Assembly (NCBI GenBank): GCA_035221665.1
Contig: CM069134.1
Span: 100,068,001-100,132,000 of the forward strand
Reading direction: 5' to 3'
DNA from: Okamejei kenojei
Lineage: Eukaryota
DNA length: 64,000 nt
A program made the translations under genes and the position numbers. Below, one piece after another: positions 3,251-60,202 of this stretch (its first letter is position 1; each line of letters opens with the position of its first letter). The notes beneath the pieces are model-generated. The model was not told the origin of the DNA and searched no databases. It worked only from the letters and a program-made list of their open reading frames with translations.

Positions 3251-3805
3251 TACAGAGAAGGCATTTGAATTATGTTTTCTTGGGGTTTAATAGCAACCTT
3301 CTCCAGAGCAGAGGGCATGAAGCAGTATTCAAAGGCATACCAATTACCTTGAAGACTAACACTGGAGGGAGAAGATCATCTGCAGCCTTTTATTTTGAAA
3401 GAAGACTGTTAAGTCTGACATCATGCTTAAAATATTTGGAATATAGACATTCTGGAGTAATAAGTTTGGAAGAAATCTGATTTTTTGAATTTGAACACTG
3501 TGTAAATGACCTTTGCTGTATTTGCCTTGTTAAAATGATACAGATCCCAGCTTGGCATCTTAAAGTTGAATGATTTATTGTGAATAGATGTGACTGTTAC
3601 AAACCGGGTCTTGGTGCAAGTAAATTACGCACACATTTTGTGTGTGTATTGAGTAAGCAGCATTAAGGACCAGACAAGTTAACGTATCAGATAAAACTTC
3701 TCTTATGAGTACTCATGTCTACTTTTTGTAAATTGCCATTGATATTTCCAATATATTCTACTTTTACGAAATGTGCTGGAATGAATGAAGTGAGTAAGTA
3801 GTAAA

Positions 3806-4030
3806 GGCAGACAAAAATGCTGGAGAAACTCAGCGGGTGCAGCAGCATCTATGGAGCGAAGGAAATAGGCAACGTTTCGGGCCGAAACCCTTCTTCAGAC
3901 TGAAGAAGGGCTTTGGCCCGAAACATTGCCTATTTTCTGTGCTCCATAGATGCTGCCTCACCTGCTGAGTTTCTCCAGCATTTTTGTCTACCTTCGATTT
4001 TCCAACATCTGCAGTTCCTTCTTAAACGAA
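3806..4030. mobile_element. Palindromic non-autonomous Penelope-like element with two head-to-head hammerhead-like cores
   Basis: Inverted arms of ~95 bp are centred on 3899. Cores CTGAAGA-A-stem-GAAAC lie at 3874-3898 (-) and 3900-3924 (+). A perfect 11-bp direct repeat TAAGTAGTAAA flanks it at 3795-3805 and 4031-4041. Confidence 0.85.
3900..3927 (+). ncRNA. Minimal type I hammerhead ribozyme-like motif
   Basis: CTGAAGA A GGGC TTTG GCCC GAAAC ATT gives the CUGANGA core, a 4-bp stem II with tetraloop, GAAA, then an NUH triplet. Helix I and helix III are weak or absent. Confidence 0.55.
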
Positions 4031-4333
4031 TAAGTAGTAAATACATCTTATCCCTTGCCGCTGTCCTCCCTGACATGAGATTGTGCATGGTGCTCTGAAA
4101 GGTTAAGAGTATGTACATGCCTGCACAGAGACTTCTAATAACTTTGAGGATAAGTAGCTGTTGTCCATTTCAGTGCATTCTCTGGTATTAGTAGCAGCCG
4201 CCTCACAGCAGCAGAGAAATAACAGATGACAGGGAATATGGAGGATAATTCTTTCCAATAAACTCATTGGCACACAACCCATTATTTGGCTTTTAAGAAA
4301 ACAGCAGCATCTGCATTGCATTAGTCTTGAGAT

Positions 4334-4617
4334 GCCGCCTTACAGTGAATACAGCGCTGGAGACCCGGGTTCGATCCCGATTACAGGTGCTGTCTGTATG
4401 GAGTTTGTACGTTCTCCCCGTGACCTGTGTGGGTTTTCTCCAAGATCTTCGGTTTCCTCCCACACTCCAAAGACCTACAGGTTTGTAGGTAAATTGTCCT
4501 GATAAATGTAAAAATTGTCCCTAGTGTGTGTAGAATAGTGTTAATATGCGCGGATCGCTGGTCGGTGCAGACCCGGTGGGTCGAAGGGCCTGTTTCCGCG
4601 CTGTAAACTAAACTAAA
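4334..4617 (+). mobile_element. tRNA-derived SINE (HE1/V-SINE-like), 5' slightly truncated
   Basis: B box GGGTTCGATCCC, core GAGTTTGTACGTTCTCCCCGTG...GGTTTCCTCCCACACTCCAAAGAC, tail GAAGGGCCTGTTTCCGCGCTG followed by (TAAAC)n. Confidence 0.9.
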
Positions 4618-10772: not shown

Positions 10773-10930
10773 CAATTTAAGAAAGAACTGCAGAAGATGG
10801 AAAAATCAAAGGTAGACAAAAAATGCTGGAGAAACTCAGCGAGTGAGGCAGCATCTATGGAGGGAAGGAATAGGCGATGTTTCGGGTCGAGACCCTTCTT
10901 CAGACTGATGTGGGGGGGGGGGGGGGCAGG
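10773..10930 (-). mobile_element. Penelope-like terminal module with hammerhead-like core, nested in the hAT
   Basis: The reverse strand reads CCACATCAGT-CTGAAGA-A-GGGT CTCG ACCC-GAAAC-ATC..., with the core at 10879-10903. Confidence 0.8.
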
Positions 10931-12069
10931 AATTCCACTGTGGGAATTGGAAAACAAATCTCTCAGAGGCTTTTTTAGAGAATAGCGAGTCATCATTACG
11001 GAAGAATTATGTTGACAGCAACTTCACCATTGTTGTGCAGAAAATTAGAGATGAAGTTGCATGCGACAAAATATGGATCTCAATAGACGAGACAACCGAT
11101 GCTGTGGGGAGATATGTTGCCAATGTGATCATCGGTACAATGGAGGCAGGTCAACCATCAAAGGAGTATTTGTTGACATTAGAGGTCTTGGAGAAGTCAA
11201 ACAGCTCAACTATTGCTCAGTTGTTTATATCTTCACTTGCTGTACTTTGGACAGAAGGTATAAAACACGAGAATGTTCTTCTGTTTGTGATTAAAAGTTT
11301 TACTCCCCAAAATGTCGCATTTGACATGCTTAGCTCAAGGACTTCATAGAATTGCCAAGCACATATGTAGCTTGTTTCCGAATGTCGATCGCCTACTTTC
11401 CAATGTCAAGAAAATCTTCCTCAAAGCACCGTCACGTGTGCAGTTGTTCAAGGAAATGGCACTTGAGATTCCGCTACCTCCTCAGCCTGTTTTGACTAGG
11501 TGTGGTACATGGCTCTCTGCTGTACTCTACTATGCTGCAAATTTTGAAAAGATGAAAGAAATCGTCAACTGTTTTGAAGAAGAAGAATCTGCTGCAGTCA
11601 GGATCGTCAGTGTAATCATGCAGAAAACGTCCCTTCACCGCGATCTTGTGTTTATTGCTTCCAATTTTGCAAACTTCCCACAAGCTATCACTTCCCTTGA
11701 GAAACGAGGCGAAACATTAGTGAATAACTTGCAGGTTGTCAACAAAGTAACTGACGATATTCGTAAAGGTCCTGGCAATATAGGTAAAGACATACAAGGA
11801 AAATGTGAGATGTTTTTTAGCTAACAAAGGTCTTGAAGAAATAGAAAACATAGCTAAAGTTCTCAAAGGTAGTTGTAATGCACAAGATATCGACATGAAT
11901 ATAGAGCCTGTAGCTTGTTTCGGGTATGCACCAGTGACCTCAGCTGAGGTAGAAAGAAGTTTTTCACAACTGAAGCATATTCTGTCTGTCAGACGACAGT
12001 TTAATACCAGATAATTTGAAAAAAAAAATGCTAGTAATTATGTGCAACCAGGCAATTTTGGTCATTTAA
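10931..12069 (+). pseudogene. hAT transposase remnant (CGGBP1/DUF659-like clade)
   Basis: Motifs IPLWELENKSLRGF, IWISIDETTD (first catalytic D), HLTCLAQGLHR (CxxH mutated), PVLTRCGTW and YAPVTSAEVERSFS (catalytic E). There are frameshifts and a deletion near 11290. Confidence 0.85.
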
Positions 12070-36534: not shown

Positions 36535-36640
36535 AACCCCCCACATCAGTCTGAAGATGGGTCTCGACCCGAAACATCACCTATTCCTTTGCTCCATAGA
36601 TGCTGCCTCGCCCGCTGAGTTTCTCCAGCATTTTGTCTAG
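36535..36640 (+). mobile_element. Penelope-like terminal module with hammerhead-like core
   Basis: CCACATCAGT-CTGAAGA-T-GGGT CTCG ACCC-GAAAC-ATC at 36541-36578, followed by the family downstream segment. Confidence 0.8.
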
Positions 36641-37175
36641 TCTGATGATTTATCACTCAGGGGAGGGGAAGCTTTTTACATGTGAAAATAAAATAAACTA
36701 AAATAAAATAAACTCAAACTAACACCAGTCTTGTTAACAACTAACAAACTAACAACTAACACTGAAAATCCGTAGAGTTCTGATAAAATTCAATAAAAAT
36801 CCAGTGTGGTCTTTTGTTCCACTAAAACTGGTTTCACGGGAAGAAAACAGCTCTATCCAGTTGCTGTAGATATTAAATGGCTGGTAATTGAAAAAGTTAA
36901 GAATGTGAACAACACTGGATGATATTTGATGTCAAATCTATAATGTTGGTGTGTAGGCCATTATTTATTGATATCTCATAAATGATAAATAAATGGCACA
37001 CTTAGCTATACTCTCCTTTTTCCTCACTTTTTCTTTGGGTAAATTAGAGCATAAAAATAGATTATTTGGACATTCTGGCAGTGCTATGTTAGGCACTGGC
37101 TGTTTGTGACTTGCCTATTTCATTTCCTGAAGTATAATAGTGACGAGTCTTCAAAGTACCTCACCAACTGTGACG

Positions 37176-37453
37176 GTAGACACAAATGCTGGAGAAACTC
37201 AGCGGGTGAGGCAGCATCTATGGAGAGAAGGAATAGGCAACGTTTTCGGGCCCAGACCATTCTTCAGACTGATGTGGGGTGGGGGGGGGGGGGGGGGGGG
37301 GCGGGAAGAAGAAAGGAAGAGGCAGAGACAGTAGGCCGTGGGAGAGCTGGGAAGGGGAGGGGAAGGAGGGAGAAAGCAAGGAGTACCTGAAATTATAGGA
37401 TGAAAATGTCAATGTTCATACCGCTGGGGTGTAAACTGCCCAAGCGAAATATG
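37176..37453 (-). mobile_element. Penelope-like element 3' end (ORF C-terminus plus terminal module)
   Basis: The reverse frame reads IFRLGSLHPSGMNID, matching the C-terminus at ~5880-5945. It is directly followed by a UTR and the ribozyme-like module. Confidence 0.85.
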
Positions 37454-39174: not shown

Positions 39175-40762
39175 TTGAGTACCCTGGGATGCGGACCTCC
39201 AGGCTCTGGGGATTTATCAGCCTTAGATCCCATCTGTCTACCTGATACTATTTCTCGCCTAATGCAAATTTCTTTCAGTTCATCTGTCTCCCTAGATCCT
39301 CTGTCCTCTAGTACATCTGGGAGATTGTTTGTGTCTTCCTTAGTGAAGATAGAACCAAAGTACCTGTTCAATTCTTCTGCCATTTCCTTGTTCCCCATAA
39401 TGATTTCACCTGGTTCTGCCTTCAAGGGACCCACATTTGTCTTTACTAATCTTTTTCTCTTAACATACCTAAAGAAGCTTTTACTATCCTTCTGTATATT
39501 CTTGGCCATCTTACCCTCGTACTTGCCCTTTTTGTTACCTTCTGTTGCCCTTTGACTGTTTCCCAATCCTCTGGCTTCCCGCTACTTTTTGCTTTGTTTT
39601 ACACCTTTTCTTTTAGTTTCATTCCATCCCTAACGTCCCTTGTCAGCCACGGTTGCCTCTTACTCCCCTAAAGGGGCTGTCCCACTGTACGAGCTAATTC
39701 AAGAGCTCTCCCGTGTTTAAAAAAAAAATCAAACTCGTGATAAGCACTTAGAATGTACGTAGCGGGTACGTTGGAGCTCGGGACGTCTCTTAGCGGCTCG
39801 TAACGCTAACGGCAGGTACTCTGGAAAGGCGGTAAGCTCGGGAAGACTCGTGAAGATTTTTCAACATGTTGAAAAATGTCCACGAGAGCCCCGAGTACCT
39901 TCGAGCAGCTATTAGCGTAATTCTCCGAGTTCGAATTAGGGGAAACTCGAGAGAACTCTTGAAATAGCTCGTACAGTGGTACAGCCCCATTAGAATCTTT
40001 CTTCCTCTTTGGAATGAAATGATCCTGCATCTTATGGATTATGCCCAGAAATTCCTGCCATTGCTGTTCCACCGTCATTCCTGCTAGGATCTTTTTCCAG
40101 TCGACCTTGGCCAGCTCTCTCATGCCTTCATAGTCCCCTTTGTTCAACTACAACATTGACACTTCTGATTTAACCTTCTCCCTCTCAAATTGCAGATTAA
40201 AATTTATCATATTATCGTCACTACCTCCTAGCGGTTCCTTTACCTTGAGTTCCCTTATTAAATCTGGTTCATTAGACAACACTAAATCCAGAATTGCCTT
40301 TTCTCTGGTCGGCTCCAGTACAAGCTGCTCTCAAAATCCATCTCGGAGGCACTCTACAAACTCCCTTTCTTGGGGTCCAGAACCAACCTGATTTTCCCAG
40401 TCTACCTGCATATTGAAATCTCCCATAACCACAGTGGCATTGCCTTTGTTAAATGGCAATTTTAATTCCTGCTGCAACATGCACCCTATATGCTGGCTAC
40501 CGTTTGGGGGCCTGTAGATAACTCCCATTAGTGTCTTCTTACCTTTACAATTCCTCAATTCTATCCACAGCGACTCTACATCGCCAGTCCCTATGTCACC
40601 CCTCGCAAGGGACTGAATTTCATCCCTCACCAACAGAGCAACCCCACCTCTGCCCACTTGCCTGTCCTTTCTATAGGATGTATAACCCTGAATATTCAGT
40701 TCCCAGTCCCGATCCACCTTCAGCCATGTCTATATAATCCCCACAATGTCATATCTACCAAG
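39175..40762 (-). mobile_element. CR1 ORF2 endonuclease and linker region, decayed
   Basis: WELNIQGY..RKDR..GRGGVALLV, GVIYRPPN, VMGDFN, NIQKDSKSFFRYV, FGSIFTKED, KSPEPGGPHPRVL. Confidence 0.92.
39672..39989. mobile_element. PIF/Harbinger-type MITE nested in CR1
   Basis: TIR AGGGGCTGTCCCACTGTACGAGCTA / TAGCTCGTACAGTGGTACAGCCCCA. Flanks TAA (39669-39671) and TTA (39990-39992). Confidence 0.88.
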
Positions 40763-40812
40763 CAAATAGGCAACGTTTCGGGTCGAAACCTTTCTTCAGA
40801 CTTCTGAAGAAA
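40763..40812 (-). mobile_element. Short Penelope-like hammerhead-core fragment
   Basis: AAATAGGCAACGTTTCGGGTCGAAACCTTTCTTCAGAC is followed by an inverted CTGAAGAAAG. Confidence 0.65.
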
Positions 40813-45705: not shown

Positions 45706-45834
45706 CGGTACACAAAAATGCTGGAGAAACTTAGCGGGTGAGGCAGCATCTATGGAGCGAAGGAAATATGCAACGTTTCGGGTCGAAACCCTTCTTCAGA
45801 CCCGGCTATTTCCTTCGCTCCATAGATGCTGCCT
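45706..45834 (-). mobile_element. Penelope-like palindromic module with hammerhead-like core
   Basis: The reverse core CTGAAGA-A-GGGT TTCG ACCC-GAAAC-GTT lies at ~45772-45799, followed by a partial inverted arm CTATTTCCTTCGCTCCATAGATGCTGCC. Confidence 0.8.
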
Positions 45835-59928: not shown

Positions 59929-60202
59929 AAGTGAATGGATTGAATATATCTCTGAAGAAGGGTCTCGACCCGAAACGTCGCCTATCTCCTTCGCTCCTTA
60001 GATGCTGCTGCACCCGCTGAGTTTCTCCAGCTTTTTGTGTACCCTCCCATGGTTCTAAGTTACTCAGAAGATCTTTAAAGTTGAGAATTAAATCTACCTT
60101 GTCTCTAATAAGCTTTATTTAGAGGAATCCTGTGGTGGTAAACTGTGGACTGTTCTCCCTTGAGTAACTTAGAACCATGGGATATATTGAATCCATTCAC
60201 TT
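59929..60202. repeat. Fold-back with 42-bp arms; left arm interrupted by a ribozyme-like module
   Basis: The right arm 60161-60202 is the reverse complement of 59929-59950 joined to 60047-60066. Confidence 0.85.
59951..60044 (+). mobile_element. ~94-bp Penelope-like module with intact hammerhead-like core
   Basis: T-CTGAAGA-A-GGGT CTCG ACCC-GAAAC-GTC followed by the family downstream segment. The boundaries are defined by the interrupted inverted repeat. Confidence 0.85.

What the first reader, a model, noticed from the sequence alone, without database searches (positions are those of the whole stretch)
3795..4041. 225-bp mobile unit made of two head-to-head hammerhead-like ribozymes, with an 11-bp TSD
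Seen: ~95-bp inverted arms meet at 3899 so that CTGAAGA...GAAAC cores point outward on both strands, and a perfect TAAGTAGTAAA repeat flanks the whole unit. Known: Penelope-like elements carry minimal hammerheads in their terminal repeats and often insert with an inverted 5' repeat copy. Inference: this is a single non-coding insertion that places a potential self-cleaving motif on either strand of any read-through transcript, and would also fold into a long hairpin.
Basis: partly seen in the sequence, partly recalled or inferred. Interest (0 to 1): 0.7.

Follow-up and report, generated by a model that had tools for sequence, protein, structure and literature searches.

The report
Mirror-image Penelope retroelement stump
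This DNA hairpin is real but ordinary: it is a very short, old insertion of a very common jumping gene whose two mirror halves were likely joined as it landed, and its ribozyme-like motifs are predicted to be locked in the hairpin and unable to cut.

Summary
The structure is confirmed: 95-bp arms (89% complementary) meet at 3899, a one-sided tail of about 33 nt follows, and a target-site duplication (TSD) flanks the unit (11 bp exact, likely 14 bp with one change). It is not a dedicated two-ribozyme element. The arm plus tail is the 3' end of a very abundant Penelope-like retroelement (RT, Zn-finger-like linker, GIY-YIG; Neptune type), 91-93% identical in long copies. The exact junction occurs at 1,173 loci, in at least three subfamilies. 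Each copy's arms usually share subfamily variants, the centre base is A or T (26:17) and left ends vary. The inversion is therefore likely rebuilt at each insertion. An inverted 5' copy, a one-sided 30-40-bp tail and opposite-strand hammerhead pairs are published PLE features. Cleavage here is unlikely: the cores lie on different strands, helix I is 0 or 2 bp, and freeing a core costs 34-38 kcal/mol. Three other organisms carry the insertion; no empty site was found. One lead: many copies stop matching the parent 1-4 nt before the core, as if cDNAs ran off a fixed RNA start.

The parts
3792..3805 (+). Left target-site duplication (exact 11-bp part 3795-3805; likely 14 bp with one later change). 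The last two A's also pair as the outer end of the left arm.
   Evidence: family TSD lengths
3806..3898 (-). Inverted, tail-less copy of the Penelope-like pLTR end (left arm)
   Evidence: 2 differences from the majority state of related copies
3871..3898 (-). Minimal-hammerhead-like core with GUU triplet, palindromic 15.2/16.2 pair and 2-bp helix I; predicted buried in the hairpin
3899..3899 (.). Inversion junction, centre base A (A in 26, T in 17 of 43 one-tailed copies)
3900..3994 (+). Direct copy of the pLTR end (right arm)
   Evidence: 8 differences from the majority state, 4 of them CpG-type by inspection
3900..3927 (+). Minimal-hammerhead-like core with AUU triplet, broken 15.2/16.2 pair and no helix I; predicted buried in the hairpin
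3995..4027 (+). One-sided PLE 'tail' of about 33 nt (36 nt if the TSD is taken as 11 bp)
   Evidence: tail described in PMC8557442, PMC11167929, PMC3846280
4028..4041 (+). Right target-site duplication (exact 11-bp part 4031-4041)

Best explanation
This is a minimal, 5'-truncated and 5'-inverted insertion of a very abundant Penelope-like retroelement, and its hammerhead-like motifs are likely inert passengers locked in the hairpin. Shown: the arm and tail are the 3' end of an element encoding RT and a GIY-YIG endonuclease; the unit has its own TSD; the same junction recurs across subfamilies with mirrored arms. Inferred mechanism: the element's protein made a staggered cut of about 14 bp and primed reverse transcription on both DNA ends, once at the tail end and once at the tail start. 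Both cDNAs ran off near the 5' end of a short RNA beginning 2-3 nt before the core. Their self-complementary 3' ends annealed across a natural palindrome with one central mismatch, and each then templated the other. The result is arm-centre-arm-tail between TSDs. The copy has since decayed.
For: Parent link: 29 of 30 GIY-YIG loci carry the arm just after the stop codon. Long copies hold RT (RVT_1 31.3 bits, cut-off 29.6) and GIY-YIG (22.4 bits, E 1.5e-4, just under the 22.6 cut-off). Arm plus tail is 91-93% identical to the window in L146 and L147. Continuum: 30 tail-selected loci (one is the window itself) include uninverted copies, inversions at other junctions, and inverted arms 89-833 bp upstream. 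Recurrence: 1,173 loci have the exact 23-nt junction, against 7,551 matches to one uninverted parent motif. In the first 50 such loci, 43 have the tail on one side only, and the centre is A 26 / T 17 (p = 0.22 against 50:50). Both arms fall in the same subfamily class in 35 of 37 usable copies; identity is 0.924 within and 0.866 between copies, reached by 0 of 100,000 permutations (13 of 50 dropped for short or broken left arms). Diagnostic columns agree between arms in 26, 23 and 24 of 27 copies, against 18.2, 12.6 and 11.6 by permutation. TSDs of 9 bp or more: 28 of 37 copies, against 9 of 1,332 mismatched-flank controls. Fixed 5' end: exact-core copies stop matching the parent at -1 (7,289), -2 (12,900), -3 (10,302) and -4 (3,057, purines only), out of more than 72,548 cores. 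Inert ribozyme: mean unpaired probability of the core is 0.135, the penalty to free it is 33.7 / 37.5 kcal/mol, and pairing starts with the first 8 nt. Literature: two RT start sites bound the tail, both strands are cut and extended, a dimer is predicted, and the hammerhead is not needed for insertion in vitro (PMC11167929).
Against: The two-primer step is inferred from end products only. Mirrored arms could also come from fold-back self-priming (favoured in PMC3846280, on an antisense template), from conversion between arms, or from several independent palindromic masters. The pile-up at -1 to -4 has no matched control further upstream. It can be inflated by point mutation, by other subfamilies with different upstream sequence (seen), by RT stalling at the C-rich tract, or by microhomology joins. 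The peak is broad. No full-length copy with a direct 5' pLTR was found among 12 long loci. No empty site was found for this locus. The parent's own hammerhead has only a 2-bp helix I, so helix I length alone does not separate this copy's - strand core from the parent's.
Confidence: 0.85

Rival explanations
1. The palindrome is a non-autonomous element in its own right: a master hairpin copy is transcribed and retrotransposed whole by the Penelope-like protein.
For: The top 40 genome matches all span nearly the whole unit, and 28 of 30 examined have a TSD-like repeat. There are 1,173 exact junctions. One young subfamily supplies 25 of 43 one-tailed copies.
Against: The top 40 were selected for likeness to the query. 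In the unbiased 50, even the young subfamily has mixed centres (A 16, T 9) and left ends from position 34 to 101. No column shows a fixed left-versus-right difference inside the arms. Junctions vary widely. A 95-bp perfect duplex would likely be a poor RT template (inference).
Confidence: 0.06
2. It is the same PLE stump, but the mirror arm arose by fold-back of a single cDNA, or by self-priming on an antisense template, at the natural palindrome and not by two primed cDNAs.
For: The parent has an imperfect 11-bp inverted repeat over the start of the core, and other junctions sit at other internal palindromes. Most copies have arms of one subfamily. PMC3846280 reads junction palindromes as self-priming (passage).
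Against: Fold-back of the tail-primed cDNA predicts centre T and parent bases left of the centre. A is at least as common (26 of 43), and several copies carry the parent's upstream bases right of the centre (L009, L012, L017). A few copies have arms of different variants (L159; this copy and L025 at one diagnostic column).
Confidence: 0.25
3. The unit works as a two-way self-cleaving or small-RNA-producing module in read-through transcripts.
For: Core nucleotides are intact on both strands. The hairpin is very stable. The insertion is retained in three other organisms. In another PLE, protein assists hammerhead cleavage (PMC11167929).
Against: The cores are paired in the ensemble and during simulated transcription. 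The + core has no helix I and a broken 15.2/16.2 pair. There is no same-strand partner. A single minimal hammerhead showed no cleavage in PMC4209133. The arms carry CpG-type decay. Rfam miRNA matches are far under threshold (38.8 against 81 bits), and no hammerhead family was listed up to E = 10.
Confidence: 0.05

Closest known systems
Insertions of endonuclease-bearing Penelope-like elements with inverted 5'-truncated pLTR, one-sided 30-40-bp tail and TSD (PMC8557442, passages; PMC3846280, passages)
   Same: Head-to-head inverted pLTR pieces, tail on one end only, palindrome at the junction, variable-length TSD; parent with RT, Cys linker and C-terminal GIY-YIG.
   Different: This is the extreme short form with no ORF sequence at all, and one exact junction is reused at 1,173 loci of this genome.
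Minimal hammerheads of metazoan PLEs (Cervera and de la Pena 2014, PMC4209133; parts 1-2 of 4 read)
   Same: Conserved core, extra base between 9 and 10.1, G10.1-C11.1 pair, no helix III loop. That paper notes pairs of motifs 100-700 bp apart on opposite strands and ascribes the scattered motifs to truncated PLEs.
   Different: Here the two cores are 1 nt apart and base-pair with each other. Helix I is 0-2 bp, not 4-5 bp (2 bp as in the D. virilis variant).
Anolis Poseidon element PAc (PMC11167929; parts 1-2 of 4 read)
   Same: 3' ends of copies fall at two sites bounding a tail (about +95 and +128 here); hammerhead shortly upstream.
   Different: PAc is Penelope/Poseidon clade and was assayed in vitro. 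This family has the Neptune-type Cys linker and was not assayed.
Non-LTR retrozymes (bioRxiv 10.64898/2026.07.22.740005; part 1 of 5 and passages)
   Same: Short, non-coding, hammerhead-bearing, PLE-related.
   Different: Retrozymes are head-to-tail tandem units with hammerheads on one strand. This is a single head-to-head join.

Membership tests
EN+ Penelope-like element (Neptune type), truncated insertion | Sequence contiguous with an ORF for RT plus C-terminal GIY-YIG | tested here: met
   RVT_1 is over the cut-off in L149; GIY-YIG is at E 1.5e-4, 0.2 bit under the cut-off, in L145.
EN+ Penelope-like element (Neptune type), truncated insertion | Zn-finger-like CX2-5CxxC linker between RT and EN | tested here: met
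   A C-x4-C-x2-C motif is seen in translations of several copies. No tree was built, so Neptune versus Nematis is not settled.
EN+ Penelope-like element (Neptune type), truncated insertion | Inverted 5'-truncated copy next to the 5' end | tested here: met
EN+ Penelope-like element (Neptune type), truncated insertion | 30-40-bp tail on one end only | tested here: met
   33-36 nt here; one-sided in 43 of 50 junction loci.
EN+ Penelope-like element (Neptune type), truncated insertion | Target-site duplication of variable length | tested here: met
   28 of 37 copies against 9 of 1,332 controls; lengths 9-22 bp.
EN+ Penelope-like element (Neptune type), truncated insertion | Direct pLTR at the 5' end of a full-length ORF | tested here: inconclusive
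   Not found in 12 long loci; shared sequence reaches about 2.9 kb.
Minimal type I hammerhead of PLEs | Conserved core, extra base before helix II, G10.1-C11.1 pair, NUH triplet | tested here: met
   Both strands.
Minimal type I hammerhead of PLEs | Palindromic 15.2-16.2 pair | tested here: inconclusive
   Met on the - strand (C/G), broken on the + strand (C/A).
Minimal type I hammerhead of PLEs | Helix I of 4-5 bp | tested here: not met
   0 bp (+) and 2 bp (-); parent copies also have 2 bp.
Minimal type I hammerhead of PLEs | Second same-strand motif for the dimeric fold | tested here: not met
   The two cores in the unit lie on opposite strands.
Minimal type I hammerhead of PLEs | Self-cleavage | not testable with these tools
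   Needs an in vitro assay.
Non-LTR retrozyme | Head-to-tail tandem units, each with a hammerhead | tested here: not met
   Single head-to-head join.
MITE / fold-back DNA element | Inverted repeats at both termini and a short fixed-length TSD (recalled definition) | tested here: not met
   The tail lies outside the inverted repeat; TSDs are 9-22 bp.
miRNA precursor (Rfam mir-722 and others) | Gathering score | tested here: not met
   38.8 against 81 bits; a generic hairpin match.

The most novel reading that the evidence does not exclude
The thousands of mirror stumps in this genome record how Penelope-like elements integrate: a dimeric protein primes two cDNAs, at times from two different RNAs, on both cut ends at the two tail boundaries; both run off a fixed initiator-defined RNA start just before the hammerhead; and they join through a 5-nt self-complementary end with a central A:A mismatch. 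This copy, whose arms differ at a subfamily-diagnostic base, would be a two-template product.
Probability: 0.35. Interest if true: 0.5.

Novelty: new member of a known kind. Interest (0 to 1): 0.2.

Why it matters
As a locus it matters little: it is one decayed copy among more than a thousand of the same shape, with a published architecture. As a population the copies are a cheap read-out of the still unsettled PLE integration cycle. The near-even A/T centre, the mirrored subfamily variants and the pile-up of 5' ends just before the core make specific predictions for the existing in vitro PLE system. They also warn that genome-wide hammerhead counts in such genomes include many structurally blocked motifs.

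Tried and rejected
Rfam scan: no hammerhead family listed; the miRNA hits are generic hairpin matches. The first GIY-YIG family search returned a different PLE family, not the parent. Empty site: none found. Contigs of organisms B, C and D run from both unique flanks into the element. In organism E the right-flank contig starts 41 nt before the TSD, which suggests but does not show the insertion. Expression: no RNA holder was listed for the stretch; one short contig of a run guessed to be RNA covers 4095-4273 with 5 differences. This is no evidence either way. Small-RNA reads could not be examined. Host gene: none of 12 window ORFs scanned (of 69 listed) matched a host gene family; the two with hits look like transposon pieces. 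Intronic or intergenic position is therefore unknown. Pile-up of 5' ends at the hammerhead cut site: only 5 of 173 incidental copies end at +28 to +31, and the ungapped method has artefact peaks at +35 and +43, so this is inconclusive. TSD check on short uninverted copies: 2 of 30 loci gave a repeat near the core, one of them doubtful; many apparent short copies proved to be complex inversions. No sequence shared between different loci was found beyond the tail end among 144 distinct ends. Literature searches listed no paper on this family in skates, or on twin priming of PLEs; subscription papers and repeat databases were not searched. Supplementary files were not read; those of PMC4209133 may list cartilaginous-fish hammerheads.

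Full report
Observation. Inverted arms at 3804-3898 and 3900-3994 are 95 nt long and 89% complementary, with one base between them. Either strand folds into a hairpin of about -160 kcal/mol, far beyond 200 shuffles. Hammerhead-like cores face outward on both strands. An exact 11-bp repeat flanks the unit. It extends to 14 bp with one mismatch; since family copies end at the base matching 4027 and family TSDs centre on 14 bp, the element is more likely 3806-4027. A tail of 33-36 nt lies outside the inverted repeat on the right.

Setting. The window lies in a 2.76-Gb genome. The closest database proteins to the parent element are named from skates, so a skate-like fish is likely. The window holds about ten more pieces of the same repeat, mostly single arms. 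No host gene was identified.

What it belongs to. Copies chosen by the tail alone show a continuum: long uninverted copies, short ones, and inversions with many different junctions. Upstream of the longer copies lies the end of an ORF with a GIY-YIG motif, for which the first look found 136,644 candidates. In 29 of 30 such loci the arm follows shortly after the stop codon, and the copies end at about +95 or +128. Walking upstream gave RT and GIY-YIG domains in the same copies, with a Cys-rich linker between them. Arm plus tail in L146 and L147 is 93% and 91% identical to the window's right side. By the description in PMC8557442 (passages) this is a Neptune- or Nematis-type endonuclease-bearing PLE; no tree was built. 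No copy with a direct 5' pLTR was found among 12 long loci.

Is the palindrome a unit that copies itself? The exact 23-nt junction occurs at 1,173 loci; one uninverted parent motif has 7,551 matches. I examined the first 50 junction loci on contig C1, chosen without regard to arm sequence. The tail is on one side in 43, on both in 1 and absent in 6. Among the 43 the centre is A in 26 and T in 17, and left ends vary. TSDs of 9 bp or more were found in 28 of 37 two-armed, one-tailed copies, against 9 of 1,332 mismatched controls. The copies fall into at least three subfamilies. Both arms were assigned to the same one in 35 of 37 usable copies, and arms are closer within than between copies (0.924 against 0.866; 0 of 100,000 permutations; 13 of 50 dropped). 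The subfamily calls were made with simple motifs, and one of the two discordant calls (L157) is a noisy copy. Among the 30 best matches, after dropping 3 of 4 copies that share flanks, three diagnostic columns agree between arms in 26, 23 and 24 of 27; that set is biased toward the query. A single master would give a fixed centre, a fixed left end and shared arm-specific differences; none is seen. The inversion is therefore most likely made anew at insertion.

How it is likely made (inferred). In the Anolis element both DNA strands are cut and extended, reverse transcription starts at two internal sites that bound the tail, a dimer is predicted, and hammerhead cleavage is not needed (PMC11167929, parts 1-2 of 4). 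Two cDNAs, one from each site, give an arm with tail on one end and an arm without tail on the other. A fold-back of the tail-primed cDNA alone would give centre T; A is at least as common, and some copies carry the parent's upstream bases right of the centre. Genome-wide, exact-core copies stop matching the parent at -1, -2, -3 and -4 in 7,289, 12,900, 10,302 and 3,057 cases (the last counts purines only), against more than 72,548 cores (that count excludes G at -11, so shares are approximate). The bases there fit a vertebrate initiator consensus (recalled, not tested); an initiator-like motif is reported in a rotifer pLTR (PMC3846280, passage), and an internal promoter in Drosophila Penelope (PMC2377424, passages). 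cDNAs ending at -3 would have self-complementary last five bases with a central A:A mismatch, which would resolve to A or T. I took up the RNA-start idea after seeing short copies and an earlier AI note (e1-9820663), which is a lead, not support. Against it: the peak is broad, has no matched upstream control, and can be inflated by mutation, other subfamilies, microhomology or RT stalling. PMC3846280 prefers self-priming on an antisense template, which I cannot exclude. This copy's arms differ at one subfamily-diagnostic base, which fits two templates but also one mutation.

Ribozyme question. Both cores have the conserved bases, the extra base before helix II and a 4-bp helix II. The - strand core has GUU, a palindromic 15.2/16.2 pair and a 2-bp helix I like the parent. 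The + strand core has AUU, a broken pair and no helix I. On either strand the core is made after its own complement and is predicted to pair from the first 8 nt; forcing it open costs 33.7 or 37.5 kcal/mol. Minimal hammerheads are thought to need a same-strand partner, a single one showed no cleavage, and opposite-strand pairs were already noted, with most scattered motifs ascribed to truncated PLEs (PMC4209133, parts 1-2 of 4). Activity at this locus is unlikely but was not assayed.

Age. The left and right arms differ from the majority state of relatives at 2 and 8 sites. Contigs of three other organisms run from both flanks into the element, with flank differences up to about 5%, so the insertion predates their split. 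No empty site was found.

Comparison and verdict. The inverted 5' copy, one-sided tail, junction palindrome and TSD are published features of endonuclease-bearing PLEs. It is not a retrozyme (bioRxiv 2026.07.22.740005, part 1 of 5 and passages), a MITE or a miRNA gene. Four literature searches listed no description of this skate family or of twin priming in PLEs; supplements and repeat databases were not seen. Eight earlier AI notes reach the same reading; they are not independent evidence. Verdict: a new member of a known kind, interest 0.2. The mechanistic lead would deserve about 0.5 if confirmed.

Noticed in passing
G000:C43:10000-36000 (L081, L082); also near the starts of C17, C11 and in C111: A second, unrelated PLE family in tandem arrays of about 6.35 kb, often near contig starts. 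It has a 759-aa RT plus GIY-YIG frame, preceded by an overlapping frame of about 600 aa with no Pfam hit. An upstream ORF and a possible chromosome-end location would be unusual for an endonuclease-bearing PLE.
   Followed up: partly
Parent copies L089-L118, about 1830-1945: Between the ORF stop and the core lies a pyrimidine tract ending in CAG, with a donor-like site at the stop codon. It resembles an intron ending at helix I, as reported for D. virilis Penelope (PMC4209133). Untested.
   Followed up: no
L107, L116, L146, L147, L102 (arm +49 to tail): In 5 of 6 parent copies folded, part of the arm pairs with the tail to form a stem enclosing the tail start; a possible RT-binding or start structure.
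   Followed up: no
window 4340-4600: A SINE-like repeat with a tRNA-like start; recalled as V-SINE/HE1 type, not tested.
   Followed up: no
window 10776-10908, 30674-30785, 33530-33628, 36546-36639, 37172-37280, 40760-40811, 45707-45834, 59951-60046: Further pieces of the same PLE end; the one at 45707-45834 has a short inverted piece with a different junction.
   Followed up: partly
window 10909-11821 and 30820-33680: A DUF659-like transposase fragment next to a PLE end, and LTR-retrotransposon-like pieces including an integrase core.
   Followed up: partly
L021, L022, L027, L029: One palindromic insertion was duplicated with its flanks to at least four places, as a passenger in a larger repeat.
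   Followed up: no
L159: A palindromic copy whose two arms belong to different subfamilies: a two-template product, or a new insertion into an old copy.
   Followed up: no
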